IMG/VR virus record: IMGVR_UViG_3300047548_000985
Span: 1 to 64,000 of that record
DNA: 64,000 bases
Direction: 5' to 3' (one strand)
From: an uncultured virus (IMG/VR IMGVR_UViG_3300047548_000985)
Taxonomy: Duplodnaviria; Heunggongvirae; Uroviricota; Caudoviricetes
The position numbers and the translations under genes are program-made. The notes below the pieces were generated by a model. It saw only the letters and a list, made by a program, of their open reading frames with translations. It did no database searches and was not told the DNA's origin. Of this stretch, positions 34,001 through 59,499 are shown piece by piece; position 1 is the first letter of the stretch; each line of letters begins with the position of its first letter.

Positions 34001-35824
34001 TGTAAATACTACCCCGTTTGGACTGGTGTAATATCTTTCACCTAGTATGTCTCTTTCAACATCAATAATAGTTTGGAATGTATCATCGACAAGTCTAATT
34101 TTCCCTACTTTATCTGGGTTACTTGAGTCCTGATAATATAAAGTATCTAGTTCTGCTGCTAAGTAAGGTACGAGTGTAATAACACCGTTTGGTGATCGAA
34201 TAAAGTTTCTGTTTATCCACTGTTTACCAAATAATGCTGTTATCTTTTGATCAGTAGGTAATGTTCCTGCTACGGTTAAGTAAATGACTGGATCTTCATC
34301 ACCAAGTAAATTCACTTGGAATAAAGTATTATTCACTACAACGTTTGCGCCATCTTCATAAACACCAGTGTTGGTTGACGCAACCATGAACCCGCTTGAT
34401 ATAGGAAGATTTAATTTACTGCCACCAGGAACAGCAGAAATAGTAAAGCGTGTTTGATCTATTATGTCTTTGATAAAGTATTCGGTATCAGTTGATAGAT
34501 CACCAAAAGAAATTCCGCTAAACGAAATCGACTCGTCTGGTTGGAATCCCACGGTTGAGTTACAAACAAGAACACCAGTTGTAAACGTAGAGAGCGTCAT
34601 TGACCCAACATCAGGTGTAAGCGTAAGTTTAACACCACCTGGAGTTGCCGAAACAGTAAAAGAAGTATCGCTTAGAATTTCTTTTATGTAGTAAGTAGCC
34701 GAAGAAGAAATGCCTCCAAACTCTGTTCCACTAAATGTAATTTCTTCGTTTTCAACAAACCCAGCAGTTGATTGGCAGATGATCGAACTATCACCGTAAA
34801 CTTCAAAAGCAGTATTGGTTAAGGTAGTGGTAGTTATTTCAGTTATATTTGCTGAGATTGGAGTATTGAAAACGGGATCATTTTCACCAAACTCCCCGTA
34901 ACCAAAGAACTTACTTACATATGCTTTAACACCAGGTTCTGTTCCGTAGAACATCAATGACTTGCCGTTTAGTGCTAGCACACTGTCGATTCCGTTTACT
35001 TCACTTATTCTTTTTCCGTTGATTTGTTCGAATGGCAACGAGGAAACAAGGTCTACAGTAAAAGTCCCCGGCACTTTAAATGCTTGCTGTGCGTCTCTGA
35101 AGGGAACGTCAAAGTAAATAACACCGTTGGAAACTCCATTGTTTGAAACACCTAGAATTTCTCTAGTGTTTACGTTTACTTGTATAGGATCATAACCAGT
35201 GACCCCAGGTACACCTTGAATCCACAGTGGGTTTTCTTGGTTTACTCTAAATGAGTAAGTTGATCCCCTCAATAAAAATATAGTAGGATTTATACCTTCG
35301 ATTTCGGAAGAATCACCTGTGATTCGATATCCCAAATTAGTATCAGTAATTGTAAAATCTATGTCACTGGATGCAAGTTCCGTTGTAACTTGAACTGCGC
35401 TAGGACCGGATGGAAGCCAATAATACTGAGAATAGTTAATTAGCTTGTCCAAACAAACAAACGAATCCCATGAATAGAATTGATTTGAAAACAATTTCTC
35501 ATGATTTTCTACGTTGCTGCCCTCGATCTTAACTGAATCTATAAACCCTGGATAGGTTAATAGATCCCTTGCAACGTCTGTATCTTTCTTCAAAAAGACA
35601 ACGGCTGGATCAAGTTGGTAGTCATTTCTTGATTTATTAAACTCAATGACATACTTATCCGATGCGTTGACACCGTACCCAAATTTACTACCAATAAATC
35701 CTTCAATTTTAGTAGTATTACCTGGTTGAACCAGTTGATCAAGCGTGGCGCTTAAAAACTGTTTGTTGTCTTTTGTTCTGAAGATTTCAGGAAGAAAATC
35801 AATAGTGCGAATTTTGGAAATCAT
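19100..35824 (-). CDS. giant multidomain baseplate/tail structural protein (5574 aa)
   Basis: N-terminal RTIDFLPEIFRT..FLSATLDQL, immediately downstream of gp6 (wedge gp7-like position); contains FG-GAP-like propeller blades, Asp-box (SxDGxxW) repeats and W..Y..G.IV.Y.G..Y carbohydrate-binding-like modules. Confidence 0.8.
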   Translation of the reverse strand: MISKIRTIDFLPEIFRTKDNKQFLSATLDQLVQPGNTTKIEGFIGSKFGYGVNASDKYVIEFNKSRNDYQLDPAVVFLKKDTDVARDLLTYPGFIDSVKIEGSNVENHEKLFSNQFYSWDSFVCLDKLINYSQYYWLPSGPSAVQVTTELASSDIDFTITDTNLGYRITGDSSEIEGINPTIFLLRGSTYSFRVNQENPLWIQGVPGVTGYDPIQVNVNTREILGVSNNGVSNGVIYFDVPFRDAQQAFKVPGTFTVDLVSSLPFEQINGKRISEVNGIDSVLALNGKSLMFYGTEPGVKAYVSKFFGYGEFGENDPVFNTPISANITEITTTTLTNTAFEVYGDSSIICQSTAGFVENEEITFSGTEFGGISSSATYYIKEILSDTSFTVSATPGGVKLTLTPDVGSMTLSTFTTGVLVCNSTVGFQPDESISFSGISFGDLSTDTEYFIKDIIDQTRFTISAVPGGSKLNLPISSGFMVASTNTGVYEDGANVVVNNTLFQVNLLGDEDPVIYLTVAGTLPTDQKITALFGKQWINRNFIRSPNGVITLVPYLAAELDTLYYQDSSNPDKVGKIRLVDDTFQTIIDVERDILGERYYTSPNGVVFTNGLKVIFFGDTFSPQYRNREFYVEGVGTGIKLIDVKSLVVLEKFSQGVYSPFDILSFDTQNYELTEEVPLTPDYITINRSSIDANPWSRSNRWFHYDVIAATARYNNDPTILGVLNSETARAKRPIIEFYPNLKLFDSGIQSKGIVDFIDFSVRNAFESSGPLRVAGFEVDSENNVFFFTSDQTNRGTATEDPTRLAAVPLFDGARVIFANEEDSVRRKTIYTVNIEKIKEVKVAVTKTEASDVITVSNTADLVVDAMLSLSGTPFGGLSPINYYIAEIIDETSIKLKDSSGTIIDISSGDADTGVMIGTLKINPIITLSETNEEPIQVGEQILVRYPNTPSMVSQYGKAFYFTGTEWETSQEKLTLNQPPLFDVIDINGVSLSDQTVYPSSSFLGTKLFSYGEGTGANDTVLGFPIKYSAVYNLGDISFDTNFNSDKFTYVQNRQVITKNVNEGYVQEFQTLNDYKKLLGWETAAGPSFQYQIFNIVPTSTTNSFVCDIPAKSVTQTPWAPVQVYVDNARLTPSQFTVLIEGNNTFITTSQLVSAGTPVQVLLLSEMVSKQAYFDIPLNLSNNPFNEDINSVSIGEIRGHYQTIFKNFPYISGSSLGSNNYRDQGKLINYGTKIVQHSASMVFSAMFLRNTSHNIFNALTYNANEYVKFKSLIVDTTTKVNFGNIYAPDEMLDSILELIASTKDSDSAFFWSDMVPLGTPYIINSYNFNNFTDTSQFNLSRVYNFGVANYNGVLVYLTRTQDGLTYRTLLVKDKDYVISDNSPSITVNVDLQIGDVITIKEYNQTYGSFVPNTPTKLGLYQSFEPTVYLDDTYLQPTYFLKGHDGSLTKLYGEYNDGLLQDIRDKVLFEFEKRIYNNLKVPVKPAMSSDDIKPGQFRSAIPLHDLNEMYSLGFLNWVGQNRLDFKTRFYDQDNPFTWNYTDSENRLLKTPIEQGGWRGVYLWLYDTDRPHVAPWEMLGFSNKPVWWDSRYGSAPYTSDNLVLWNDLANGIDWNNGSPRVIETRKRPDLLKIIPVDSQGKLISPFYTIVGNYNDVIFKNEWEVGDVGPTEASYIKSSTWPFDLMKLFVLTEPAKFFGLFIDTDKYRLNEEFNQFLLNNRRHYRVSDLEIYGSGIPKHSYINWIVDYEKQFGINAVEMLTDVKDNLDVRLAYRLAGFSDKDLLKFYVEKSTPTTKNTSLLIPDASYSVLLYDNQPFENIEYSSIIIQKTRTGHKIWGNSQNKAYFKTAVPKNNGIFEILTLGNRTVKVSKEYTDEIVAVPYGTEFFTIQAVAEFLKSYGVYLENAGMQFNQIESGNAISWNQMILEVLYWTQSGWEEGATINVNPSAKVITINKESSIVQPLTLKENIVLNQNLLPIELKDLCVYRDGTEFNVRALNEGDSLCFFKANLFNMEHVVVFNNTTIFNDRIYNLTTGLRQQRILVKGSKTADWDGSVNAYGFILNQDNIEEWKPNIGYTKGVIVKYKNNYWVATKVVQPSSSFSDTDWVKTDYNTVQKGLLPNPSLAAYESTIFYDINRTNLEYDTNLLGFSSIGYRPRQYLSDANLTDVSQVNVYKNMIKTKGTFNAANNFNGVTLQQGSIDYDIFENWAIKSGEYGGVLNASFFDVKLDQSKLISNPNIIGMIFNNSLTDVQQSVPLYDVYNFDRQLPNANVLPTTNYESSKLPYAGYVNFDDIKVNAYNLTSLTSNTESISTLYHNDYVWLADYKGTWRVYSPISLGAYDGTSCNNGVLVVECNNNLDGTVNLVFNAPHGLAIDDPFGLIYFSPEMDGYYTVLSTPAVNTVRVAKSLAFSMLNVRGAGLAFKFQPHRVSKGSEIASLPLTNTAFNSTDVWVDEDVSGAWAVYRKTLNYKEVLSLEKDSNTTFGEAVAYIPNLGFIVTEPKDGTVANVGKAFLYKIGQLESPEEIVNSETFGTTIAHSDDMVLISQPNGTLDTDRKIYVYQAITSNGLKELRLQQTIDAPNLSDTDWGTGLAISKDNQWIYVGSTANNKVYAYAKNQDWAFSSTGLVMTSATLVGQGFVTVTGNQTATILPGTRLSFSNSGNETYLVSGVSFDGTNSRISFTSTLTQPHAIGTIYFAKHNYYLVDDDFIVPATSIPTDKFGYRISTNDDGSKIFVSAPETNESSVLIETGTVHIFDRIVQTFEIQDSNETSVDLGWTPNTVTRVLKNFEPLRQVDDYSVNASVIEGLELSAGDIITVHTNKFVRIQTINSSEINDGRPHIRFGKGLDTSYAGDELLAGAPFRISSDGKEGVVYRFTNGGKKYGLIKATSDFQTIGSPVDILINGFRLTIQGDLATVVNSINTSGINNVNAYALENKLVITLINESLNPVHNKLNVSVFDASVLTSLGFTLYQKTQEITSVHKLGSSQFGDNIKFNQYGSFIVSAPADTRFTSTTFDFFDDSKDNDTYFDNDFTKFVDGTVNAGSVYMYDYLQNVNESIDDPGQFAFAQSIVDFREHNGIYPNFGRSLDFSYYNVMVGVPDYENVSETNGKAFHFENALNKANWSVFRSPSEIVDVNKLQDIQIFSSNTKETYGLIDYIDPLQGKLLGAVQQNIDFITSTDPAGYNRDGEILNGNLVWDKHYVGRIWFDTTNVRFVDYHQNDTVYNSKYWGTIFPGSDIAVYTWIESTVKPEAYAGPGVPKNTTDFVTRYETNAANILSPRYYFWVRNTGLVFENMGKTLSDVIIAFYILNPQNSGIAYFAGYSSDKFGLYNCAEFIKDDSILHVGVANGSSDDTSYQKFSLIREGNADDFLSGLPRRIQQEPTQLYAKFIDSLAGMDSNGQTVPDHRLPESLKYGVLVRPRQGFFVDRLQALKNYLTYANSVLSQFPITETRNPQLIFKTEFSEQGGEAYLVVDTPSYWELTNWWASGYSDTTKPTVEVARFSDLYTLEAYEGLIAAVARNGNGLRETHIFTQGNWVRIGLEKGTIQFKSSLWDYSSTNEGFGDGYFGSETFNQIPVEETKNIIRSLNEEIFVNDLIIHRNKSLILMFEYIKSENNLVNSYSNWLNKTSFVDVTQTVSELESSPKYQLADQTLLSGYINEVKPYHVVIKDFQLKYKKLEPYFGDISDFDLPAYYDENIDRFVSPQLTYGTSFGDSFNINEDIWQSGIYQSWFNNYGLRIEGVNDFQVSTLASYVSITATELFVDNGYSFPESGIIKVENELIGYTSINRITGKLQGVTRGAFESEPAVHLPGTPIITNLPGVVVLNSGRLYSFTPKVFASIDTTRYPAPRREAKFRVEMKGDRVSNIVVVDSGDGYAVQPTLTIEPSLTFNFVADDVDSSKNVITIENHSFINGDLVKFSTNEDPIPGSELINDYYYYVRVVGINKISLYFYEFDASVDTHRIALTGLELGSLSLTAKVVPIVSSSPAKQIKPKIKFDRTSFTTNITDWVSGAFYSGAIDQTNALASTQEETASSSGFSSLSNNLLFLIGKFIQDDGLVWSVDLTRTTLSPKQIDGARVIGVPEEVSVTKTFASPTPGGTPMVVNIVYPFFSNGNVYNKFGAIVTDGGSGFPVGHQVQVDGSEFGGVSGVNDVTITVMKTYEDFDQNTETAIEDVVYSLNVTGAPLRESLRVFYVKHLNNYIGEWNANTTYYYGQIVSFEGQQYALSHLGDWELDTAYTLGDIVRYDGKYYTPSQPVPNNTLPTETDYWGEITEGVMGVLPGSSNIWMTAVQKNQNSFALYENPTLTTKVVTGDYETNQAYLFIPEIFNFDASRVMFNGSLYECIESNSDVEFDYDKWREVKSDDVSLNALDRITAFYGPTVNMPGKDLTQLINGLTYPYNIYYGNPFAPEEQYPLDTILKDKPFYGIEQVVRDVVWDGNRYVAILNSETTASTCISEDGINWSIQSISTQKFDVSSIFYSGETQNLIIPITRSSATSDFITCASTLYLELDKPIVFSGNVPFGGIIVGQTYYVKSIENETQFTISETLAGPTKDLTDGIGYLTFELVGQRKREYYVTVKNSSTPMLVSYDAVSWISQGPLSSFDEGEYGDQGYDSSALAIETTQLNSVDYFDGVYISVGYEIFKSINGVDWNPVFTFSNAVDLLNEFNAVKYIDVSFFEGFVAVGKGQTSVVTDGVYSIQNTDLIAVSNDQGNTWTRISPVTNLSLNAIANNSSVIVAVGEEGTIIYSTNGYNWLATSSGTTETLRDVIYQNGNFIAIGNNGKIISSVDGMTWANVTGIDTTNDLYAITWSGTEYLIGSSNGVVFVSADGLNWTERRILSTADESLYNVTGDTFTAGYSPEEMMSGVITDTISMYVRTKPSAGWDPETYEYLGFEMTSFVTKPNASNQISFRGVIQTPTSINIFKILDTTNRGPRLYLDIDYTINWVTKEITLTSPLDSSYSIMVELYELGNGPQLVRSTTDDTPLREDSGDSIIYIDQLFSETSQGATYVFVNGQRLTTSSFGLEKSSDNRTILRFNSLYDPETTYISYVIYSDANGVYSIPEAEVFTFTSTRNFVLTNFLDSNAISTLIVSVNGVRLSNTKYSLAGNTLVIDNSVPLVVGDKIGVITFSNLTGQYMTLDAATATFAEIATLESINSVSVVTTKTPHDLTTGDVVLLNGVSGATEINLTPLQVEVVDSQTVRLYQVYIDNTVNIPLLASGTSSDGVIWGVKSGETIKGILLNNTKLGAMIDPNRLWVTVDGNRINSDKVFFYDYRGTNYVGLLTGVASTEQILINAMTPFVVPNQQEYRLFIDRLNNTTAYNINVFNKTWLVEPLFITDNQVILNDVTRVTTSETYTTLAREDDDGDYDYLYYEKLGYRLYELNLPGITTEIKNMTLRNLTKGITLVQSTTTQRNDFYWTRENLAIEVHMLVPLEDENTVFAKVQAGDVIQVDIDFGNFILVNGEEIRFSIINPTQNVSEIRIGRKYTIQTLGNADFTSLGASSNTVGVTFTATANGDTLGQATGTVIALNTLSGLTRGVNGTGAQEFIPSFTTVFSLLEADEIADLSSLTKYPPQ

Positions 35825-46910: not shown

Positions 46911-47546
46911 TCACAAAAGGATTTTAAACTTGCAATTATCAAAATGATACCTATTCATGTTTGTTACCCCACCCTCTTTTCCACAGTGGGTGCATATTAC
47001 AGTTCTTTGGGGACCTCTAGGTACACCTAATTTTTTTGCACTCAATTCAGGTCTTTTTTTACCTTTTAACTTACTAGGTTTACCAGTCTTTCCAGCACTA
47101 ATTGCAGGATTCTTTTTGCCCTTTCTTGCCCTATTTGACTCTGCTAACTTTGCTGCATGAGACGGAGATTTAGGTTTTCCTTTTAACGGACTAGGTATCC
47201 CTTTCTTAGCATCACTCATCCTTTTTCTAGTCTCTTCACTCCTGATACAACCTGATGCACCTTCACCGCCGTCCGTTTTATTTCTTAAAATTCCTTTGTT
47301 TAGGTCTTTCCTGCCATACCACCTAATCATTCTACGTTCGACGGCAAGAGCACCTAATTCAGTTAAATTGGATTCAAGAATTACAATTCTTTCATTGTTA
47401 TTTGGTGCGCTAATGGGTTCGCATTTCATTTTTATCCAGGCGCGGTGACCTTTGCCCTTCCCAATATAATACGGTGAGCCGTCTTTTCTAAGATAGGCGT
47501 ATACATAAAAACCAAATGGTGGATTTTTTCTTGAATAAATAGACAT
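46911..47546 (-). mobile_element. free-standing GIY-YIG homing endonuclease with NUMOD3-like basic repeats
   Basis: FYVYAYLRKDGSPYYIGKGKG.RAW...E..AL.VER.MI..YGRKD...GILRN.TDGGEG; SEETRKRMS..KKG repeats; C-terminal CTHCGK...RYHFDNC. Confidence 0.9.
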
Positions 47547-47622: not shown

Positions 47623-47651
47623 TTGATATTTTGCCGTATCTATATTATACT
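47623..47651 (+). promoter_or_regulatory. sigma70-type early/middle promoter for gp55
   Basis: TTGATA(47623-28)-N17-TATACT(47646-51), 25 nt before ATG 47676. Confidence 0.7.
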
Positions 47652-47675
47652 TTCCATACTAAAAGGCAACCATCA

Positions 47676-48590
47676 ATGACCATACAATCCTCCCTACCAC
47701 CTGCAAAAAAAGTAAACTATTTAAATAATAAAGACATCTTGAAAGAGATTCATCTAAGCAAGAACTCATACTGTTCATTCAAGACAGAAGAGGATAACAA
47801 ATATGACCTAATCATAGATTTTCCGCATGAACCTCTAGAGAGGTCGTTTGAATATATGTTAAAAGAAGACACCCTTGAAAAGGCAAAGGAAAAAAGGGCT
47901 GCTAGGATTTTTGTTGAGACTGGAGAAAAAGTCGATTGCTCAACTATCCAAACGTCCGACTTAGTATTCAGAGTCATGACATGGGATCATATTCCACTTT
48001 CAAATAAAAAGCCAAAGAAAGTCGAAGCAAAGAAATCCGTAAAGGAAATATTTGCATTCGAGGAAGACGATAGCGAACCCTCATTTGAAGATTTAGAAGA
48101 TGTCGCAACTAAAGGGGAGGTTGACGACATGGTGCATGTTAAAGTAAACTTTCCTCCATTCCAGCATTTCAAGATTGACAAAAACAACTCAGTCGAGTGT
48201 GTGGGTAAGAGTCATTGGAAAGGTACAATCAACGACGGTGAATTTTGTAAAGATCATGGTCAGATCACCGACAAACTTGCCCGAATATACATTATGATGT
48301 GTGAAAAGTACGCAATGAAATACAACTGGCGAGGGTATACTTATAATGACGAAATGAGAAACAGCGGAATTCTTCAGCTAACTTATGTAGGACTTAGATT
48401 CAACGAAGCCAAAAGTGTAAACCCGTTTTCGTATTTTACACAAGTAATAACAAATAGCTTCTTACGCATTCTTAATTTGGAGAAGAAAGGTCAGAATCTG
48501 CGAGATGATATTCTAGAGATGAATGGGCTAAACCCATCATATACTAGACAGTTTAATAACTCTAGATCGCTGTCATCAGACGGTGACTGA
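47676..48590 (+). CDS. gp55: late-transcription sigma factor (T4 gp55-like)
   Basis: NYLNNKDIL.EI; GQITDKLA...NWRGYTYNDEM...KSVNPFSYFTQ.ITNSFLRILNLEKK; start placed at MTIQ (47676), downstream of the promoter; precedes gp47/gp46. Confidence 0.85.
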   Translation: MTIQSSLPPAKKVNYLNNKDILKEIHLSKNSYCSFKTEEDNKYDLIIDFPHEPLERSFEYMLKEDTLEKAKEKRAARIFVETGEKVDCSTIQTSDLVFRVMTWDHIPLSNKKPKKVEAKKSVKEIFAFEEDDSEPSFEDLEDVATKGEVDDMVHVKVNFPPFQHFKIDKNNSVECVGKSHWKGTINDGEFCKDHGQITDKLARIYIMMCEKYAMKYNWRGYTYNDEMRNSGILQLTYVGLRFNEAKSVNPFSYFTQVITNSFLRILNLEKKGQNLRDDILEMNGLNPSYTRQFNNSRSLSSDGD

Positions 48591-51713: not shown

Positions 51714-51749
51714 AAAATATCGTATCATTAGACAATGATAAGTAGTTGT

Positions 51750-52319
51750 ATGCCATCAGCGTCAAAAATTAAAGGATCAGGATTTGAAAGGGAAATTGCA
51801 AAGTACCTTTCAGACCTTTACGGAGAAAGTTTCGTAAGGGCCGCACATTCAGGAGCTTTCGTTGGTGGCACTAACCAGACTCGCAAGGAGTCATTATCTG
51901 AATCACAGATCAGAGGTTTTAAAGGCGACATTATCCCGGGTGACAGTTTCTCTCTGCTAAACGTAGAGTGTAAATTCTACGGAGATTTCGCATTCCATAG
52001 TTTGTTTACTGGAAAACACAGCCAGTTAGACAAATGGCTTGAACAACTTCTTGATGCTGCTGATGAAGGTGATCTATCTGTACTTTTCATGAAGTTCAAT
52101 CGCCGCGGTCGTTATGTTGCAGTTCAAGCTGCATTGACTTGGGTGACTGACTTTTTCTTCTTCTACGGAAGCAAAAAGTACGGAGATTGGTATATTATGG
52201 AAATGGAAACATTCTTTAGGCTCAACAAAGACTTATTTAAGGCATATTCAGGCACCACGCCACAACTCAATACTGACTCAAATAATAGCTCAACTGATAC
52301 CAAATCTAACCCAACATAA
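51750..52319 (+). CDS. Holliday junction resolvase (Hjc-like PD-(D/E)xK nuclease)
   Basis: SKIKGSGFEREIA...F.R...SGA...GDI...VECK; ATAAGTA late-promoter-like motif at 51738-44 supports the ATG at 51750. Confidence 0.75.
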   Translation: MPSASKIKGSGFEREIAKYLSDLYGESFVRAAHSGAFVGGTNQTRKESLSESQIRGFKGDIIPGDSFSLLNVECKFYGDFAFHSLFTGKHSQLDKWLEQLLDAADEGDLSVLFMKFNRRGRYVAVQAALTWVTDFFFFYGSKKYGDWYIMEMETFFRLNKDLFKAYSGTTPQLNTDSNNSSTDTKSNPT

Positions 52320-52340
52320 AACTCAAAATGAGGGCCTTTG

Positions 52341-52902
52341 CAGTTCTAGTCCGATGAAGAAGTAGAGAACTGAGACAATTTGTTTGATCGGGGCTTGCTC
52401 GATCCTCCTTGAGATTGTACAGGTTGTGCTGTGCCGTCAGATTCTGGAGAAGGCGATGTTGCGAAGATAAAGCAACATTCGGAATACCGACAGGGCTCTC
52501 GTTATGAGTGCGAACCCTGAATGAGTCTATAGCTTACTCTGTTTATTGCGGCTATAGAACATGCGTCGATTTCAACTAGTAAACCGTATCACATAAAAAC
52601 TGGTATAGGTTGAAGCTTGAACTGCGGCCCCTATGAATACCTTACAGGTCGACCGGTGGCGGTGCATCAGCCAGATAATAGCTATTTGCATCGAGGGGAT
52701 AAACAGCAAAGGAGGAAACGAAAGTATCTTAACCTTTGGTAGTGCTGAAACAGCACTACCATGGATTCCTCGAAAGTGAGTAAAAGAAAGACAGATTAAA
52801 TATTACTCCTAATCACTTAAAGAATTATTAAGAATAAAAAAGAATCCTGAATGATTGCGAACGTAGTGAGCAAGAATGAAGGATTATTGACCGAAGGTCA
52901 AT
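52341..52902 (+). ncRNA. candidate large, highly structured non-coding RNA of unknown class
   Basis: ~610-nt gap with no ORF of 60 aa or more, GC-richer than its flanks, more than 10 stems including long-range nested pairings; G-U pairs and GAAA loops favour the + strand. Confidence 0.6.
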
Positions 52903-52932
52903 TACCTACTAAGAGAAATGAATAGCTATGGC

Positions 52933-55900
52933 TTAAGCTCTTGCGTAGTCCAACGACTTCCCTTGTAGTCTTGTCGATCTCTCTAGCAGATCAATCACCT
53001 CATCTAACTTACTTAAAATCTCACCTCCCATCTTTAAATTACTAGAATCATCAGGTCTTGCTTGTGCATTTACAGCGGAGATCAATTGATCTAGTTTTCC
53101 TGAAAGAGCGGTTACACCAGACATATCTCCTTGTGATAATTTTTGTTCATTTGCAATGTTCATAGGAGCAGGTGCTCTTGCCATTTGAACTCCAGCTGCT
53201 GTTGCTTGAGGAGGTTCAGTTGGTGGGGTCGGAGCAACTATTGGGGCAGTCGTAGGTGCTGTTGTCGGGGCAGATGCGACTTTAGGTTCAGGTACAGTTA
53301 CAGGCTTGTTTATGTCAGCAGGTATTGAACCAAACTGCGCTCTGTATTCATCCGCAAACGCCTGTGCCGCAGTCGTTGGTTTTTTCCTAGAGTTTGCAGG
53401 TGAAGCAGCCGATGCAACTGCGGTTGATCCAGTTGGTTGTGCTGGAGAGGTTGGAGCAGAGATTGAGCCGTCTAACTGTGCGTGTATATGACCACCGGTT
53501 GCGTTTCTACTGGGGTTATTATACTCATCAATTGCCCCACTGAATCCCATTTGTTTAAGCGCAGCAACAATTTGCTTGCCTTCTTCAACTGTTGGAGGCT
53601 TTGTCAAGGTAAAATCGACTGCTTTACCTTGAGTATGCATACTGTTTGGAGTTTCTCTGATATGGAAACGATCATTAAATCCAGTGAATGCATGGAATCC
53701 AGGAATAGAGGATTGAATCTGTTGGGCTAGCCCTATCATTCTGCTATCTAATGACGCATTAGGTGCCTGAACATCTCCTTGCTTTATTTTCAATCCGGCT
53801 GCTCTTAGCATTTCTTCGCTTGAAGTTATGCTTGAAGCAGCAGAAGCTACGGATGGTGTTGCAGGAGATGAACCTAGAAGAGCCAACGCATTATTTTTTC
53901 TGTTTGCAACTTCAGTCCCGGCTGATCGCTCGTACTTTTTATCTACTACGGCAGCGGCATCTTCTGCGGTTCTTGTTTGACGCAGAGAATCACCTGCTTG
54001 TTTCTCAGTGTTTTTTAGTTCCCAATCAACATATGCAAGTTGTTCTTCAAGGGTGGCAGATTTGACTTCTTTTCCGTACATCTGACGAAACCGTTCAAGT
54101 CTATCATTTCTCCATTGAGCGATTCCTTGTGCATTTTCTTTTTTGTTAAATGCAGTTGTTGACAGATCCTTACCAGATTCTTGTTGGAGATTACCAACAA
54201 TGCCCGCTGCTTGCTCTCTTGTCCATCCCTGTTTGATAAAGAACTCCATTGCTTTAGTAGCGTTTGGAGTTGCGCCTAACCCTGCTGCTGCATTCCCACC
54301 TTGTGTTGCAGCGGGTAACCCGCCTAGTTCCTTCATTCGGGATTGGGCAGCCGCAGTTTCTTTAGCAACACCTAAGTCTACAGCACCCTTCATTCCCATT
54401 GATGAAAGGAAGGTGTTGAATGCTTCGTTGTTTTGTTTAAACTTTAATGGGTCAATCTTTAAATTGGCAAACTCTTCGAATTTTTCGGTTATGGTCTTGC
54501 CGTCAAACTTCTTAGAAAGATTATCTGATATTGTGTTTGCTAACGTTGATCCCTTAACAGCCTTTACGTTAGAGAAGGCTTCCATGCCTTCAGCAAATGC
54601 TTTGAAACCTTCAGCCTTAGTTTTGAAGTCTTCAATGCTGCCCGTGATTTTTATCTCACTGAATTTCAAAAGTTTCTTAGCAAGATCATCAATGTTAATA
54701 CCAGCACCAAAAAAGTCGGCTATCTTGGAGAGCAAGGTACTTGAACCTGTTCCTGCTCCTTGATACGAACTTAATGCTTGATCGAATGCAGCCAATGCTT
54801 CTGCGTTTCTAGTAACTATCTCTTTGCTTACGTTGATAGAGTTAAATGTTTCTATTTTTTTCTTCAATGAGGCAAGATCAACGTTTAGGAAGTCAAAGTT
54901 ATTTAACCAAGCTCCTGCACCTGCACCTGCACCTTGGTAAGAGCTTAACGCTTGATCAAAAGTTTTTAGTATGTCTGCATTTACTATAATCTTTTCCTTA
55001 CTATTAGGACTAAATTGTGCAAATTCATCAATAAAACTTTTTATTCTCTTTGCTAAAGCTTCAAAGTCTACATTCAACGAATCGAAGTTATTTAACCAAG
55101 TACCTACTCCTGCTCCTGCTCCTTTGTATTCACCTATCGCAGAGTCAAACGCCTTTAAAATGTCAGCGTTCGATATTATTATGTCTTTCTTAGATGAGTC
55201 AATCTTTTGATTTTCAAATGATTTAATGAAGCTGTTTATTCTCTTTGCTAAAGCTTCAAAGTCTACATTCAACGAATCGAAATTTCCAAGCCAATTACTA
55301 ATGCTTCCGCCCTTGTAGCCACTCATTGCATCGTTAAATGCCTTCAGAGCGTTTGCATTTTTTGTAATTTTATCAGTGTCACCTAGTTCAAGCTTGCTAA
55401 AATCAATAAATCTATCCCAAGGTGTTTTGACTTCGAAGAACTTCGACAACCCTTCTGCGATTCCGATAGAAATAGTTGTACCACCTTTAAGTTTAGACAT
55501 TGCTTCGGCAAATGCTCTTAATGCTTCAGCGTTAGTTTTTACCTTGGGTGCATTTTCTATTGGTAACTTAGAAAACTCTACAAATCTGTCCCATGGGGTC
55601 TTGACTTCAAAGAAGTTTGCTAATCCTTCTGCAAGAACACCCGAAATTGTTATCCCACTCTTAAGGGCACTCAATCCTTCAGCAAAAGCTCTTAATGCCT
55701 CTGCATTGTTTTTCACCTTGGCAGAATCATCTATTGGTAACTTAGAAAACTCTACAAATCTGTCCCACGGAGTTTTAACGTCAAAAATAGAGAAAAGTTT
55801 TTCTGCTATTGCACCTGTAATTGAAGCACTTCCGTTACTTAGGGCAGCCATAGCTTCCCCGAATGCTAGTAATGCTTCTGCGTTTGTTTTTAGTTTAGGT

Positions 55901-58900
55901 CCGTCTATTGGAAGATTTGAAAAATCTGCAATCTTCTCAAATGGTGTCTTTCCGCCAAAGAACCCAACTAGCCCGTCGACGATACTCGATGCTACATTAG
56001 CAAAGCTTGCTGCCACACCACCGGCAGCAAATACAGCTAATCCACCGCCTAATGCGGTAATTCCTAATCCAACATCAACTAGGTTGTCACCATCGATTCC
56101 TGAGAATGCTGCCACTCCTTCGGCAAATGTTGGAAGTGCCTTGCCTATTAACCACATTGATGCAGCAGCTCCTGCAGAAATCAATGCGATTGCACCGGAG
56201 AAGATTGCGGCTCCTTTAAGTATTAATGGATTAGCGAACGCAGTAAGACCACCTGCAATTCCTTGTAAAATGCCTTGAATTGCTCCACCTGCTCCTGCTC
56301 CAATGCCTTGGATGAATCCTCCTAGTCCCTTTCCTAAGTCAGTTATCTTACTACCAAAGCTAGGTCCGGTGCGTTCTGAAAGAGAGGATAAATTATCCAT
56401 TCCCTTTGCTGACGTAGTAGGTAGATTTCCTGCAATACCTTCTCCGGCTTTTGCTGCTCGCAAGTCTTCAAAGAATTTTTTACGAGCGGCTTTCCCAGCT
56501 TCAGTTGATGCCCTGTTCCTGTATCTGATACTGCCACGTGTTTCCTTGAATGTTTTCAAAAATGCAGCATTATCTGCATCTCTTGCTTGTCGTTTTATAG
56601 AATCTCCTGTCCAACGAGGAGTTCCAATTCCTGTTGCAGCAGTGCTGACTGCCTTAGTAGCATTACCTGCTGTTGCTGCGGTATTTTCGGATAAGGTTGA
56701 TCCTAACTTTCCAGCAGCATCACCTAGTGGTTTTAATAGCTTCTTACTAAGGACAGTGGTAAGAACACCTGCTATTGCTATGCCAGCATAAGACCAGTCT
56801 AGTAACTTATTGGAATCTAATTCAATTCCAGTTTTATCTTTAATCCAATCTCTAAATGTATCTACTGCGGTACTAAATTTGTCAACACCACTATTAAATT
56901 GAGAAGCATTAGTTGCGTATCTTTCAATTGCTGCACCCAATTGAGTAAACACCATAGCTTGAAGCTTTGCTTGTGATTGTCGATCATTCTCAACTGCCCC
57001 AATGTATTTTTCTACATTTGGATCTAATTTTTCACCTCTCTTTTGAGCCTCTCTTTGATCTTCTACAAATTTGGCTATTGTCTCAGCGTCATCTTTTCCA
57101 GTTTTTTCTTTGACTGTTCTTCTCAACCCCTCTTGGGCACGGGTAAAATCATTTGCCGCTGCAAATGTGTCACCAAACAGAGAAGTAAATATGCCGCTAT
57201 CGATCTTAACTCCACCGGCGTATATTTTTTGTTGTTTGGTAAGTTGCTCACCTACCGTTAGCATCGCTTGTGCAGTATCCTGCTTCTCTACTGCCTGCAA
57301 TCCTCCTTGACCCATCATTGTTTGATAGGCTGCTGAATTCTTGTCAACCGCTCCACCTGCGGCGTAGTATCTAGCAGCACCTGCGGCTAGGTTAGTAAGC
57401 CCCTTTGCTTGTAGCTGAGTAGCAATATCTTCCGCTTTTTTTAGTCTAGCTGCCTTTTCGAAATCACCGCTTGCTTCTGCTTCGACTTGTGCAGCTCGCA
57501 ATTCGCTTATAGATTGAATTGCTTTTCGCGCTTCTTCTTGCTCTTTTCTAGTTGCACCTGTTATTGCTGCAAGTTTGTCAAGCTCCTCCATATAAGCATA
57601 TGCGCCTTTTGTAAGGTCTGCTTGTGACTTGTTTGCTAACGTTCCGCGTTTAGCTTCAGCAGCCATGTACTGCACAATATGCTCATTTTGCTCTTCAGTT
57701 GTAATACCTAAGCGTAATAAGCTTTTTCCTAATTCATTTGTGGGGCTCGTTATCGAACTAGCAACAGAAACAAACTTGTCAGCGCCATCCCCAACTGAGG
57801 CACCGAACAATTTCATTTCTTTTGCGTTATTGGTTATTAACGAAGTGTATTGTTCAGTGGAAATACCTAGCTTTTGTTGATTTCTAAAGATATTCTCAAA
57901 ACCGCCGCTAGTTGTTCCAGATACTTTTCCAAGCTCATTGAATGATTTGTATAAATCCTCGCCTTGTTTAGACGCAAGCTCGTTTAACTTTGCACCTGCT
58001 TTTGCCGTAGTACCAAATAATGCAAGCGCACCGCCTGCAAATCTTGCTGCTAGTCCTAATCCAGGAATGAGCATTAATGCGAAGCCGATTCCTTGTGCAG
58101 CACTTCCTAGTGTGTCTGCAAACTTGGTAGTGGCTTCGGCACTAACCATTGCACCTCGTCTACCCTCATAAATTGCAGAGGTGTAGCTCTTTATAGCAAG
58201 AACGCTTCCGCTTATTGCAGCCGTAAGCAGTTGTGTGGTTGCACTAAGGCCTATGTTCTGTTTATTTGTCTCTAAAAACTGCTCTGAAAGCTTTGATGAT
58301 GCTTCTCCTAACGAATTAATTCTCTTTGATGCGTATTGGAATCCTTCTAGGTCTAAATTCTTTTGTCGTTCTATTCTTTCTAAAACTTTTTCTAGCTTGT
58401 CAGTATCAACTTCCGCGCCTTTTCCGATCTGTTCGGCGCCCCTTGGTATTTTTAAACTTTGTCTTTCGGCTTTAGTTAAACCTAGTTCATTTAGCTTTGC
58501 TAGCTGGTCATTATCAAGTTTTACAGTAGATCTACCTTCAACTTTAGCCTTTTCTAAAACGTCGTTTAGGTCAATATCCTTTTCAAGAAGGCCTTTTCTT
58601 TGATTGGATCTAAGATCGTTTACAGGAGATGCAGCAGAGGTAGTAGCTCCTGTTATTTCTACTAACTTTGCCTGAAGATCACCAAATATATCAATCAACG
58701 CTTCTACTTGATTGTTGTATTCCTTTTGAAGAGGTATTGTCTTCTCTTTGGTTAACTTTTCCTCCTCTTCACGAAGCGGAATGGTCTTTTCTTTTGTATG
58801 TTGATCTACTGCTTCAAGAGTTGTGTCGCCTTTGACTGTGGTTTTTAATTCAGGTAGTTTAAATAAAGCAAGTTGGTTTCTAAACAGGTCAAATGCGTTT

Positions 58901-59499
58901 TTTGTTTCTAAAATGGATGCGTTCAATCCACTAGTGTCGATGCTCTTTATTTTTGGTAACGCAAGACTGGCTATCTTTCCTTTAAACTCTTCAAGATCAG
59001 TTTGAATTTTGCCAATTGATTCTGTTAACCCACTGGTATCGATTGATCCAATAGCAGGTAATTCAAACCCTTTTATTAAGTTATTGAAGTTGTCAATCGA
59101 TGATTGTATATCACCTATTGAGCGATTAACTGAAGACGTATCAAACGTAATATTTTCTAGTTTACTTTTGAATGTGGTGGTAGAGGCAAGGATGTCATTA
59201 AAAAATGGATCTAATCTTTTGGCATCAAGAGACGTAACAAACATGTCAAAGACAGTTTTGACATCAGTTAAGCTTTTGTTGAAGTTATTCAGAATAGCCG
59301 CAGTTCTACCTTGAGTAGAAGCTAGCATGCCGAGATTAACTGAAATTTGCCTAAAGTTGTTTTGAAGGTCGCCTTTGGAGCTGTTTAAGTTGTTGTTTAT
59401 CTGTGATATTTCACCTGATGTACCAAGTAATGTATCTCGCATGCCTATTGTAGCGGCACGAAACTCTTCCAACAGTGCATTTAGTTCTTGATCATCCAT
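52933..59499 (-). CDS. tape-measure-like protein with C-terminal phage-tail lysozyme and M15-like peptidase domains
   Basis: Long Ala/Gly-rich helical protein with TM-like segments; AAGIVGNLQQESG..AQGIAQWR..LEEQLAYVDWEL..YERS (tail lysozyme); FNDRFH..SMHTQGKAVDF..GGHIHAQ (Zn peptidase). Confidence 0.8.
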   Translation of the reverse strand: MDDQELNALLEEFRAATIGMRDTLLGTSGEISQINNNLNSSKGDLQNNFRQISVNLGMLASTQGRTAAILNNFNKSLTDVKTVFDMFVTSLDAKRLDPFFNDILASTTTFKSKLENITFDTSSVNRSIGDIQSSIDNFNNLIKGFELPAIGSIDTSGLTESIGKIQTDLEEFKGKIASLALPKIKSIDTSGLNASILETKNAFDLFRNQLALFKLPELKTTVKGDTTLEAVDQHTKEKTIPLREEEEKLTKEKTIPLQKEYNNQVEALIDIFGDLQAKLVEITGATTSAASPVNDLRSNQRKGLLEKDIDLNDVLEKAKVEGRSTVKLDNDQLAKLNELGLTKAERQSLKIPRGAEQIGKGAEVDTDKLEKVLERIERQKNLDLEGFQYASKRINSLGEASSKLSEQFLETNKQNIGLSATTQLLTAAISGSVLAIKSYTSAIYEGRRGAMVSAEATTKFADTLGSAAQGIGFALMLIPGLGLAARFAGGALALFGTTAKAGAKLNELASKQGEDLYKSFNELGKVSGTTSGGFENIFRNQQKLGISTEQYTSLITNNAKEMKLFGASVGDGADKFVSVASSITSPTNELGKSLLRLGITTEEQNEHIVQYMAAEAKRGTLANKSQADLTKGAYAYMEELDKLAAITGATRKEQEEARKAIQSISELRAAQVEAEASGDFEKAARLKKAEDIATQLQAKGLTNLAAGAARYYAAGGAVDKNSAAYQTMMGQGGLQAVEKQDTAQAMLTVGEQLTKQQKIYAGGVKIDSGIFTSLFGDTFAAANDFTRAQEGLRRTVKEKTGKDDAETIAKFVEDQREAQKRGEKLDPNVEKYIGAVENDRQSQAKLQAMVFTQLGAAIERYATNASQFNSGVDKFSTAVDTFRDWIKDKTGIELDSNKLLDWSYAGIAIAGVLTTVLSKKLLKPLGDAAGKLGSTLSENTAATAGNATKAVSTAATGIGTPRWTGDSIKRQARDADNAAFLKTFKETRGSIRYRNRASTEAGKAARKKFFEDLRAAKAGEGIAGNLPTTSAKGMDNLSSLSERTGPSFGSKITDLGKGLGGFIQGIGAGAGGAIQGILQGIAGGLTAFANPLILKGAAIFSGAIALISAGAAASMWLIGKALPTFAEGVAAFSGIDGDNLVDVGLGITALGGGLAVFAAGGVAASFANVASSIVDGLVGFFGGKTPFEKIADFSNLPIDGPKLKTNAEALLAFGEAMAALSNGSASITGAIAEKLFSIFDVKTPWDRFVEFSKLPIDDSAKVKNNAEALRAFAEGLSALKSGITISGVLAEGLANFFEVKTPWDRFVEFSKLPIENAPKVKTNAEALRAFAEAMSKLKGGTTISIGIAEGLSKFFEVKTPWDRFIDFSKLELGDTDKITKNANALKAFNDAMSGYKGGSISNWLGNFDSLNVDFEALAKRINSFIKSFENQKIDSSKKDIIISNADILKAFDSAIGEYKGAGAGVGTWLNNFDSLNVDFEALAKRIKSFIDEFAQFSPNSKEKIIVNADILKTFDQALSSYQGAGAGAGAWLNNFDFLNVDLASLKKKIETFNSINVSKEIVTRNAEALAAFDQALSSYQGAGTGSSTLLSKIADFFGAGINIDDLAKKLLKFSEIKITGSIEDFKTKAEGFKAFAEGMEAFSNVKAVKGSTLANTISDNLSKKFDGKTITEKFEEFANLKIDPLKFKQNNEAFNTFLSSMGMKGAVDLGVAKETAAAQSRMKELGGLPAATQGGNAAAGLGATPNATKAMEFFIKQGWTREQAAGIVGNLQQESGKDLSTTAFNKKENAQGIAQWRNDRLERFRQMYGKEVKSATLEEQLAYVDWELKNTEKQAGDSLRQTRTAEDAAAVVDKKYERSAGTEVANRKNNALALLGSSPATPSVASAASSITSSEEMLRAAGLKIKQGDVQAPNASLDSRMIGLAQQIQSSIPGFHAFTGFNDRFHIRETPNSMHTQGKAVDFTLTKPPTVEEGKQIVAALKQMGFSGAIDEYNNPSRNATGGHIHAQLDGSISAPTSPAQPTGSTAVASAASPANSRKKPTTAAQAFADEYRAQFGSIPADINKPVTVPEPKVASAPTTAPTTAPIVAPTPPTEPPQATAAGVQMARAPAPMNIANEQKLSQGDMSGVTALSGKLDQLISAVNAQARPDDSSNLKMGGEILSKLDEVIDLLERSTRLQGKSLDYARA
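54800..55960 (-). repeat. two families of internal repeats (58-aa KTPWDRF units; 65-aa NFDSLNVDFEALAKRI units)
   Basis: 37-nt identity at 55557/55731 (174-bp period); 47-nt identity at 55040/55235 (195-bp period). Confidence 0.85.

What the first reader, a model, noticed from the sequence alone, without database searches (positions are those of the whole stretch)
52320..52932. Candidate large ornate non-coding RNA between the resolvase and tape-measure genes
Seen: this is the only long ORF-free gap (~610 nt) in an otherwise tightly packed 64 kb, and it is GC-richer than its flanks and full of helices. Local stems: CAGTTCT/AGAACTG (52341/52366), GATCGGG/CTCGATC (52386-52404), ATGTTGC/GCAACAT (52456-78), CAGGG/CCCTG (52491/52515), TCTATAGC/GCTATAGA (52526/52551), TTCAAC/GTTGAA (52571/52609), CGGTGCA/TGCATCG (52660/52687) and a perfect 11-bp TGGTAGTGCTG-aaa-CAGCACTACCA (52737-61). 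Long-range nested pairs close a ~300-nt multibranch domain: TCCTCCTT(52403-10)/AAGGAGGA(52709-16), TGCTGT(52427-32)/ACAGCA(52703-08) and CCCCT(52628-32)/AGGGG(52694-98). The first two 3' partners are contiguous, as expected for coaxial stacking. G-U pairs and GAAA loops point to the + strand. Established: phages encode large ornate RNAs of unknown function (GOLLD, ROOL). Inference: this is such an RNA, possibly a new class, expressed late downstream of the resolvase. I see no tRNA, tmRNA, RNase P or intron core motifs in it.
Basis: partly seen in the sequence, partly recalled or inferred. Interest (0 to 1): 0.88.

Follow-up and report, generated by a model that had tools for sequence, protein, structure and literature searches.

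The report
New large structured RNA in giant phages
A roughly 530-base, intricately folded non-coding RNA gene lies just behind a DNA-junction nuclease gene in this giant freshwater phage and in well over a hundred uncultured relatives. It matches no catalogued RNA family, so it is a strong candidate for a new class of large functional RNA.

Summary
The 613-nt gap is real and is the longest ORF-free stretch in the window. It holds a + strand structured RNA of about 526 nt (52377-52902).

- **Distribution:** the same element follows the same PDDEXK/RusA-like resolvase gene in all 80 related viral contigs kept.
- **Structure:** on 64 sequences under 88% identical, a 77-pair model is 96.4% paired. 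It has 14 helices, including a multibranch junction and two pseudoknots. Shuffled pairing is 82.7% and slid pairing 30-43%. Fifty pairs change on both sides (0/500 shuffles), with at least 362 independent pair switches on a tree.
- **Strand:** G·U outnumbers A·C 181 to 28, which gives the + strand.
- **Known families:** Rfam 15 gives nothing for the window or for 20 relatives. The RNA was not found in one representative genome of each of 185,579 bacterial and archaeal species, or in the cultured relatives PA5oct, SCTP-2 and Phosso.
the idea of a large ornate RNA of a new class holds. Seven of its eight local stems are conserved, but only one of its three long-range helices is.

Function, promoter and expression remain untested.

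The parts
51735..52319 (+). Upstream gene: 194-aa PDDEXK_15 / RusA-like Holliday-junction resolvase. It is the constant left neighbour of the RNA.
   Evidence: Pfam PF24608 E 3.7e-26; phrog_244. It lies directly upstream on the same strand in 111 of 120 motif-found loci; 7 had too little upstream DNA and 2 had under 230 nt. It is also upstream in the 80 loci.
52320..52376 (+). Window-specific 5' stretch with hairpin CAGTTCT (52341-47) / AGAACTG (52366-72). It is not part of the conserved family.
   Evidence: It is absent from the 59 relatives aligned, where the conserved RNA starts 0-25 nt after the stop codon.
52377..52385 (+). Conserved 5' leader (consensus AAAUUnGuu).
   Evidence: Nearly invariant columns. 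It may instead be part of a promoter; this is unresolved.
52386..52404 (+). Hairpin A (52386-92 / 52398-404).
   Evidence: 5 of 6 pairs show double-sided changes. A hairpin of 5 bp or more abuts CUCC in 62 of 64 sequences, with 63 distinct sequences.
52405..52449 (+). Helix P2, CUCC (52405-08) / GGAG (52446-49). It encloses the conserved UUGAG and GAUUCU strands and hairpin B (52417-22 / 52429-34), plus G52413-C52438.
   Evidence: P2 is 100% paired, with C-G changed to U-A in 2 sequences. Hairpin B and its extension are 85.8% paired, and 7 of 8 pairs change on both sides.
52454..52481 (+). Hairpin Hp3. In the window it is a longer stem, ATGTTGC/GCAACAT, with a 9-nt loop.
   Evidence: All 4 basal pairs change on both sides. 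It is capped by a GNRA tetraloop in 93 of 142 family members, but not in the window.
52485..52658 (+). Helix N, UACCG (52485-89) / CGGUG (52654-58). It closes a multibranch junction that holds C, D and F.
   Evidence: RNAalifold found it independently. The outer pair is UA 36, CG 15, UG 5, AU 3; the other 4 pairs never vary. At least 8 independent switches.
52491..52519 (+). Hairpin C: CAGGG (52491-95) / CCCUG (52515-19) plus inner UCG (52499-501) / CGA (52511-13), with invariant internal-loop bases.
   Evidence: 100% paired, and 3 of 5 outer pairs change on both sides.
52521..52562 (+). Hairpin D: base AUG (52521-23) / CAU (52560-62) and stem 52526-33 / 52551-58. Its loop forms pseudoknot E.
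   Evidence: 99.3% paired, and 10 of 11 pairs change on both sides. At least 88 independent switches.
52539..52706 (+). Pseudoknot E: loop of D (52539-43 and 52546) with AAACAG (52701-06).
   Evidence: 99.0% paired, and 5 of 6 pairs change on both sides. At least 35 independent switches. An unbiased column-pair scan also found it.
52565..52653 (+). Helix F, GUCGA (52565-69) / UCGAC (52649-53). It encloses the variable hairpin L (about 52571-52620) and the invariant strands ACUNCNG and UUACAG..ACCGGU.
   Evidence: F is 100% paired, and 3 of 5 pairs change on both sides. L forms 4 bp or more in 64 of 64 sequences and is 12-179 nt long.
52628..52698 (+). Pseudoknot G: CCCC (52628-31) with GGGG (52695-98). 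It crosses helices F and N.
   Evidence: 95.3% paired, and 4 of 4 pairs change on both sides. At least 16 independent switches.
52660..52693 (+). Hairpin H (52660-71 / 52681-93).
   Evidence: 95.4% paired, and 9 of 11 pairs change on both sides. At least 100 independent switches.
52737..52761 (+). Hairpin I: UGGUAGUGCUG-AAA-CAGCACUACCA, followed by the invariant UGG.
   Evidence: 98.4% paired, but the stem sequence hardly varies: 4 pairs never vary and 2 change on both sides. It is conserved as sequence rather than proven by covariation.
52843..52885 (+). Hairpin M: outer stem 52843-48 / 52880-85 and inner GC-GAACGUAGUGA-GC (52857-71).
   Evidence: The loop motif GA[A/G]CG..AG[U/C]GA occurs in 130 of 142 sequences with 30 different stems. 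Within the motif, A..U covaries with G..C, flanked by tandem G·A.
52886..52902 (+). Terminal hairpin J (AUUGACC-GAA-GGUCAAU). It is the likely 3' end of the RNA.
   Evidence: 8-bp stem; 5-7 pairs show double-sided changes. It is present in all 60 sequences. The family profile matches the window at 52370-52904, E 1e-69.
52933..59499 (-). Convergent downstream gene: 2188 aa with a tail lysozyme / tape-measure-like domain. It is not a constant neighbour.
   Evidence: Pfam PF18013 and phrog_9570. It has no similarity to the downstream genes of relatives, which are a 75-aa ORF and a T4_baseplate hub gene.

Best explanation
**Shown**
- The gap holds a gene for a large structured non-coding RNA of a family that Rfam 15 does not hold. 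It is about 526 nt here (52377-52902) and about 420-500 nt in relatives.
- It is read on the + strand, the same strand as the resolvase gene that always precedes it.
- Its fold, from 5' to 3':
  - hairpin A;
  - a CUCC/GGAG helix holding hairpin B;
  - hairpin Hp3, usually with a GNRA loop;
  - a multibranch domain closed by UACCG/CGGUG that holds hairpins C and D and helix F;
  - two pseudoknots: the D loop with AAACAG, and CCCC with GGGG across hairpin H;
  - a sequence-invariant hairpin I;
  - an AU-rich linker, then two terminal hairpins with related C-GAA-G tips.
- The most conserved bases lie in junctions and single strands, not in the helices.

**Inferred**
- It is made as the tail of the sigma factor-gp47-gp46-resolvase transcript, or from a start overlapping the resolvase stop codon. 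The two 3' hairpins then protect it.
- It works in trans through its three-dimensional fold, as the core of an RNA-protein particle or an RNA-only assembly, as proposed for other large ornate RNAs. It does not work by antisense pairing.
- I put about 40% on that mode of action. The biochemical role is unknown.
For: **Conservation**
- 80 of 80 kept loci encoding the resolvase (59-69% aa identity) carry the element after its stop. blastn anchors it in 72 of them, and alignment shows it in the rest that have enough DNA.
All 120 matched the family profile.
- There are 142 distinct sequences; 64 of them are under 88% identical, and pairwise identity goes down to 54%.

**Structure**
- 77 pairs are 96.4% paired, against 82.7% when shuffled and 29.6-43.1% when slid.
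- 50 pairs and 700 cells change on both sides, with 0 of 500 shuffles as high.
- RNAalifold independently returns the same nested helices: 56 pairs, 34 with double-sided change.
- A minimum of 362 independent Watson-Crick switches occur on a tree.

**Strand and coding**
- G·U 181 against A·C 28.
- The longest ORFs have a median of 59 aa, against 54 aa when shuffled. Core lengths modulo 3 are 24/21/19.

**Not a known family**
- Rfam gives 0 hits at gathering score, and nothing credible at E<=10 for the window or at E<=1 for 20 relatives.
- There are no tRNA or tmRNA genes.

**Phage-specific**
- The 11 motif matches in the representative genomes of 185,579 species are all chance: 0 of 11 match the profile.

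**Linkage**
- The resolvase is directly upstream in 111 of 120 loci, while the downstream neighbour differs.

**Signs of a tertiary fold**
- Two pseudoknots.
- GNRA loops on Hp3 in 93 of 142 sequences.
- Invariant junction strands.
Against: - **No expression data.** No RNA run holds the region, so a transcript, its ends and its timing are unshown.
- **No transcription signals.** The consensus scans find no sigma-70-type promoter or intrinsic terminator in the gap. The upstream motif (CATAAAAC here) is not the phage's ATAAATA late-promoter-like motif.
- **Single-sequence folding does not tell the strands apart**.
- **Some helices lack covariation.** Hairpin I, most of helix N, the inner helix of C and most of P2 never vary, so they rest on conservation alone.
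- **Circularity.** The model was partly read from the same MAFFT alignment that was then counted, and the sequences are related. Cell counts therefore overstate the number of events. The slid control, RNAalifold and the tree count reduce this concern but do not remove it.
- **Variable or poorly aligned parts.** Hairpins A and K are out of register in alignment A2. K is missing from the window, so it is dispensable.
- **Mode of action.** Nothing in the data says what the RNA binds or does. The 'trans-acting folded RNA' mode is an inference from analogy.
Confidence: 0.8

Rival explanations
1. It is a ribozyme: the pseudoknotted core catalyses a reaction. One example would be cutting itself out of the resolvase transcript to make its own 5' end.
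For: The size, the two pseudoknots, the multibranch junction, the GNRA loops and the invariant junction bases are the features of large ribozymes. The RNA starts 0-25 nt after the stop codon in relatives, with no recognisable promoter or terminator between, so processing from a longer transcript is plausible. The order F(5')-G(5')-F(3')-hairpin H-G(3') has the same topology as the P3-P7-P8 core of group I introns; that comparison is recalled, not tested.
Against: No Rfam ribozyme or intron model matches. The joining strands differ from a group I core: 14-17 conserved nt lie between G(5') and F(3'), and H abuts G(3'). There are no flanking exons. No cleavage site can be named from sequence.
Confidence: 0.12
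2. It acts only in cis, as a structured 3' untranslated region. It would stabilise the resolvase-operon mRNA and/or insulate two convergent transcription units.
For: It sits at the 3' end of a + strand operon, facing a - strand gene, in the window and in relatives. The two terminal hairpins M and J look like 3' end protectors. It stays with the operon when the downstream gene changes.
Against: Protection or termination needs one or two hairpins. It does not need 14 helices, two pseudoknots and about 60 invariant bases in junctions, kept down to 54% overall identity. No terminator-like site was found.
Confidence: 0.08
3. It is a decoy or regulator of the neighbouring junction-resolving nuclease. 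Its multibranch junction would mimic a branched DNA and hold the resolvase in check until packaging.
For: The RNA is strictly linked to the resolvase gene (111 of 120 loci; 80 of 80). It contains a multibranch junction closed by helix N. Relatives of the resolvase in PA5oct, SCTP-2 and Phosso lack both the RNA and the roughly 25-aa C-terminal tail seen here.
Against: Linkage may be inherited gene order only. The protein family works without any such RNA in cultured phages. The C-terminal tail is Ser/Thr/Asn-rich, not basic. No binding test was possible.
Confidence: 0.05
4. It is a DNA-level element, such as a replication origin, packaging site or recombination hotspot, and not an RNA.
For: It lies next to recombination genes: gp46/47-like nucleases and the resolvase. 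No transcript has been shown.
Against: Compensatory changes keep pairing within one strand, with a 181:28 excess of G·U over A·C. Pseudoknots and GNRA loops have no role in duplex DNA.
Confidence: 0.03
5. It is decayed or very short coding sequence: a pseudogene or a small-protein gene.
For: ORFs of 32-48 aa exist in the gap.
Against: The longest ORFs are no longer than in shuffled sequence (median 59 against 54 aa). Length differences are not multiples of three (24/21/19). Substitutions follow base-pairing rather than codon position.
Confidence: 0.01

Closest known systems
GOLLD and ROOL (large ornate RNAs of bacteria and phages)
   Same: Several hundred nucleotides long, with many helices and pseudoknots. 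Found in phage DNA, conserved by covariation, and without a known biochemical role. A 2024 preprint reports that GOLLD, ROOL and OLE form RNA-only homo-oligomers (10.1101/2024.12.08.627333; I saw only the search listing and the start of the abstract).
   Different: Their Rfam covariance models do not match the window or 20 relatives. No tRNA genes are nearby; tRNA neighbourhood is a recalled trait of those families. This RNA is tied to a resolvase gene in T4-like giant phages. Self-assembly is untested.
OLE and raiA-motif RNAs
   Same: Large structured bacterial non-coding RNAs with highly conserved junction bases. They are thought to act as ribonucleoprotein cores (recalled).
   Different: Those are cellular RNAs of Bacillota and Actinomycetota (recalled). 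Here no Rfam model matches, and the motif scan found no true copy in one representative genome of each of 185,579 bacterial and archaeal species.
Group I intron catalytic core (P3-P7-P8 pseudoknot)
   Same: The strand order F(5') - G(5') - F(3') - hairpin H - G(3') is the same pseudoknot topology. GNRA loops are present.
   Different: The Rfam intron model does not match. No gene is interrupted. There is no P4-P6-like domain, only one variable hairpin L. The joining strands are much longer (14-17 nt) and differ in sequence.
   Same: It describes a large folded RNA of an uncatalogued family in which a hairpin loop forms a long-range pseudoknot backed by compensatory changes. It shares 5 of 101 short words with this RNA. 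It is probably the same family.
   Different: It is an unchecked AI note on other DNA, and I could not see its sequence or coordinates.

Membership tests
GOLLD RNA | Match to the family's Rfam covariance model (sequence plus structure). | tested here: not met
   cmscan of the whole window at gathering score gave 0 hits. The gap at E<=10 gave only 3 weak unrelated matches. 20 divergent relatives at E<=1 gave none.
ROOL RNA | Match to the family's Rfam covariance model. | tested here: not met
   Same searches.
GOLLD / ROOL | Frequent neighbourhood of tRNA genes (recalled trait). | tested here: not met
   ARAGORN finds no tRNA or tmRNA gene in the 64 kb.
OLE RNA / raiA motif RNA | Match to the Rfam covariance models. 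| tested here: not met
Group I intron | Match to the Rfam intron model, and interruption of a host gene with exons on both sides. | tested here: not met
   No model match. The resolvase ORF ends at a stop codon and no same-strand ORF continues after the RNA.
Group I intron | P3-P7 pseudoknot with P8 between the 3' strands. | tested here: inconclusive
   Helices F, G and H have this topology, but the joining strands and the missing P4-P6 domain do not fit.
Group II intron / related ribozymes | Domain V and other domains matched by the Rfam models; often an adjacent reverse transcriptase. | tested here: not met
   No model match. No reverse transcriptase among the 13 neighbouring proteins scanned.
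RNase P RNA / tmRNA | Match to the Rfam models; tRNA-like domain and tag reading frame for tmRNA. | tested here: not met
   ARAGORN negative.
Guide RNAs of mobile-element nucleases (omega RNA / HEARO, bridge RNA) | Next to a TnpB, IscB or IS110-type gene; match to the HEARO model. | tested here: not met
   The neighbours are gp55-like sigma factor, SbcCD-like nucleases, a PDDEXK resolvase and tail genes. No Rfam match.
Large ornate structured RNA (descriptive class, not a homologous family) | More than 400 nt, many conserved helices with covariation, pseudoknots, conserved junctions, no coding potential. | tested here: met

The most novel reading that the evidence does not exclude
This is a new class of catalytic or self-assembling RNA carried by giant T4-like phages. 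It could be a ribozyme that processes itself out of the recombination-gene transcript. It could instead be an RNA that mimics a branched nucleic acid and so controls the adjoining junction resolvase. Either way, a DNA phage would be using a pseudoknotted RNA of about 500 nt as a working part of its replication and packaging programme.
Probability: 0.15. Interest if true: 0.92.

Novelty: new variant of a known kind. Interest (0 to 1): 0.8.

Why it matters
Very few classes of large structured RNA (over 400 nt) are known in bacteria and phages, and each has opened new biology or structural work. This one meets the usual standard for a new class:
- 142 distinct sequences;
- 50 covarying pairs;
- two pseudoknots;
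- phage-only distribution;
- no Rfam match.

It also has an unusually fixed genomic address, right behind a Holliday-junction resolvase gene. That gives a concrete first hypothesis to test. The alignment and the invariant motif can be used at once to annotate these giant-phage contigs. The RNA is a tractable target for probing, cryo-EM and ribozyme assays.

Tried and rejected
- **Anti-Shine-Dalgarno mimic.** I considered that the invariant CCUCCUU after hairpin A copies the 3' end of 16S rRNA. I rejected this. Divergent members read CUCUCCUUGAG or CCCUCCUCGAG. CUCC pairs with an invariant GGAG, with a C-G to U-A switch in 2 sequences.
TCCTCCTT/AAGGAGGA and TGCTGT/ACAGCA are 68.6% and 64.8% paired.
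- **Expression.** The look-up of sequencing runs listed 5 DNA runs and no RNA holder.
- **Cultured relatives.**
  - blastn of the window RNA and of a central member against 50,697 phage records gave no match.
  - PA5oct, SCTP-2 and Phosso have no gap after their resolvase genes.
  - A relaxed motif gave 0 of 3 records.
  - A second motif gave only matches at the control rate.
  - The family profile over the whole PA5oct genome had a best E of 0.64.
- **Cellular genomes.** There were 11 motif matches in the representative prokaryote genomes. None is the RNA.
- **Promoter.** Upstream TAAAAAUU / TATAAAAAUU-like strings overlap the stop codon and differ from the phage's ATAAATA motif. This stays unresolved.
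- **Terminator and sigma-70 promoter scan.** Nothing in the gap.
- **Invariant alternative pairings.** GCGUUGC (52563-69) with GUAGUGC (52739-45), UGGAGU with ACUUUG, and UCCUUG with CGGGGA were seen. They conflict with covarying helices and never vary, so they are left out of the model.
- **Literature.**
  - Four full-text searches found no description of this RNA.
  - A term look-up in preprint 10.64898/2026.10.21.760802 also found none.
  - The supplements of bioRxiv preprints were not visible and might list it.
- **Covariance model.** None was built. A model of the whole RNA exceeds the calibration limit, and pattern and profile searches answered the questions asked.
Full report
**Setting.** The window is 64 kb of a 73-kb IMG/VR viral contig. 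It comes from a T4-like giant myovirus.
- It encodes a gp20-type portal, baseplate proteins, a gp55-like late sigma factor, gp46/47-like SbcCD nucleases, and ORFs of 4447 and 5574 aa.
- Its nearest cultured kin are PA5oct, Atu_ph07, Phosso and SCTP-2, at about 50-55% portal identity.
- DNA runs that hold the region are freshwater metagenomes.

**The observation.** The gap 52320-52932 separates the stop codons of two convergent genes.
- On the + strand is a 194-aa PDDEXK_15 / RusA-like resolvase. On the - strand is a 2188-aa tail lysozyme / tape-measure-like protein.
- The gap is the longest ORF-free stretch in the window; the next is 372 nt.
- It is modestly GC-richer than its immediate flanks.
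- The sequence alone is not decisive. The fold z-score is -2.85 on the + strand and -3.01 on the - strand.

**Not a known RNA.**
- Rfam 15 gives no hit at gathering score in the window.
- At E<=10 the gap gives only three weak, unrelated matches.
- Twenty divergent relatives give nothing at E<=1.
- ARAGORN finds no tRNA or tmRNA.

**Relatives.**
- Searching IMG/VR with the resolvase protein found 115 relatives, of which 80 were kept (59-69% aa identity).
- Nearly all have a 650-760-nt stretch without an ORF of 90 aa or more after the resolvase stop. The truly non-coding part is about 500 nt and ends at a small - strand gene.
- blastn of the window gap finds it in 72 of the 80. Alignment shows the element in the others too, apart from two cut by contig ends.
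All 120 match a profile of the first alignment.
- Together there are 142 distinct sequences: 96 under 95% identical and 64 under 88%, with identity down to 54%.
- The window is a divergent member, 55-66% identical to the others.

**Structure.**
- An unbiased scan of all column pairs was run for runs of pairing columns with double-sided changes. It recovered hairpins A, B, C, D, H and J, the long-range helix F, and two crossing helices.
- I wrote these as a model on the tool alignment A2 (64 sequences).
- RNAalifold, run independently, returned the same nested helices. It added helix N (UACCG 52485-89 with CGGUG 52654-58) and a pair below hairpin B.
- The final 77-pair model gives these counts:

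| Measure | Model | Controls |
|---|---|---|
| Cells paired | 96.4% | 82.7% shuffled; 29.6-43.1% with partners slid by 1-3 columns |
| Pairs changed on both sides | 50 | 0 of 500 shuffles reach any measure |
| Cells changed on both sides | 700 | 62-121 when slid |

- Cells count sequences rather than events, so I also counted the minimum number of Watson-Crick pair switches on a FastTree of the same alignment. The total is 362.

| Helix | Minimum independent switches |
|---|---|
| Pseudoknot E | 35 |
| Pseudoknot G | 16 |
| Helix N | 8 |
| Helix F | 8 |
| Hairpin D | 88 |
| Hairpin H | 100 |
| Helix P2 | 2 |
| Hairpin I | 4 |

- Hairpins A and L vary too much to stay in register in A2. They form in 62 of 64 and 64 of 64 sequences respectively.
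- The 3' part holds two more hairpins, M and J.
  - M keeps a loop motif in 130 of 142 sequences on 30 different stems, and has an internal A-U to G-C switch.
  - J has an 8-bp covarying stem.
- Hp3 carries a GNRA loop in 93 of 142 sequences.
- Hairpin K (loop CAUGGCAA) is present in most relatives but missing from the window.

**Strand and boundaries.**
- Within the modelled pairs, G·U cells outnumber A·C cells 181 to 28. The RNA is therefore read on the + strand, like the resolvase gene.
- The family profile matches the window at 52370-52904 with E 1e-69. This agrees with 52377 (conserved leader) to 52902 (end of hairpin J).
- There is no coding signal.

**Context.**
- The resolvase lies directly upstream on the same strand in 111 of 120 motif-found loci. 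The remaining 9 have little or no upstream DNA.
- The downstream neighbour is not constant. It is a tape-measure-like gene here, and a 75-aa ORF plus a baseplate-hub gene in relatives. The two show no similarity.
- So the RNA travels with the sigma factor-gp47-gp46-resolvase unit.
- No sigma-70-type promoter or intrinsic terminator is predicted in the gap.
- Structural genes of this phage are preceded by ATAAATA. The string before the RNA differs (CATAAAAC here, TATAAAAAUU-like in relatives) and overlaps the stop codon. Whether the RNA has its own start or is processed from the operon transcript therefore stays open.

**Distribution.**
- The motif that found 120 of 120 true copies in viral contigs gave 11 matches in the representative genomes of 185,579 prokaryote species. 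None of them is the RNA.
- The cultured relatives PA5oct, SCTP-2 and Phosso have no gap after their resolvase genes and no motif match.
- The profile finds nothing in the whole PA5oct genome.
- The family thus looks confined to a broad clade of uncultured giant phages.

**What it most likely is and does.**
- Shown: a conserved, + strand, non-coding, multiply pseudoknotted RNA gene of a family not in Rfam 15.
- Inferred:
  - It acts through its fold. The invariant bases sit in junctions and loops while the helices drift.
  - It does not act by antisense pairing.
  - It is produced with or just behind the resolvase transcript.
- I favour a ribonucleoprotein or RNA-only assembly role, at about 40%.
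- The rivals are listed with their tests: ribozyme, purely cis-acting 3' region, decoy for the resolvase, DNA element, decayed coding sequence.
- No data here discriminate among the RNA-level functions.

**Comparison with known families.**
- In kind it resembles GOLLD, ROOL, OLE and raiA RNAs. It fails every membership test that could be run (covariance models, tRNA neighbourhood).
- Its F/G/H pseudoknot has group I-like topology, but not group I joining strands, domains or exon context.
- Four literature searches and one preprint look-up found no description of it.
- An earlier AI note of this scan (e1-5365887), on another giant-phage genome, appears to describe the same uncatalogued family and its loop pseudoknot. 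My pseudoknot E agrees with it.

**Verdict.** Function, expression and transcript ends remain to be shown.

Noticed in passing
window 52916-52931: The motif AAATGAATAGCTATGG lies just before the stop of the downstream gene. It is also conserved in many relatives (GATAAATGAATAGTTACGG) although their downstream gene is different. In relatives its TTACGG may pair with an ACCGTAA upstream of hairpin M, enclosing M and J; the window lacks that partner.
   Followed up: partly
window 52563-52569 with 52739-52745: The invariant GCGUUGC is complementary, with G·U pairs, to the invariant GUAGUGC in the 5' strand of hairpin I (97% paired, no variation). It conflicts with helices F and I and could be an alternative conformation.
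   Followed up: no
window 3691-17034 and 19100-35824 (- strand): Two enormous ORFs of 4447 and 5574 aa lie among the tail and baseplate genes. They were not annotated here.
   Followed up: no
window, upstream of the gene starts at 18261, 35824, 39296, 46803, 59499 (- strand) and 59587, 60663, 62835 (+ strand): A T4-like late-promoter string (A/T)ATAAATA precedes the structural genes. This fits the gp55-like sigma factor encoded at 47631-48590.
   Followed up: partly
window 46911-47546 (- strand): A homing-endonuclease-like ORF (NUMOD3 motif, phrog_314/655) sits between a virion protein gene and the late sigma factor gene.
   Followed up: no
L025 2103-2984: This relative carries a radical SAM gene between the gp46-like nuclease and the resolvase. 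The window lacks it there. Only L025 was checked.
   Followed up: no
alignment A2 columns 430-462 (no window counterpart; would lie near window 52719-52722): Most relatives have an extra hairpin K (stem GGG/CCC or GGU/ACC, loop CAUGGCAA) that is missing from the window. One subgroup has the 8-nt palindrome GCCAUGGC there, which could allow loop-loop dimerisation.
   Followed up: partly
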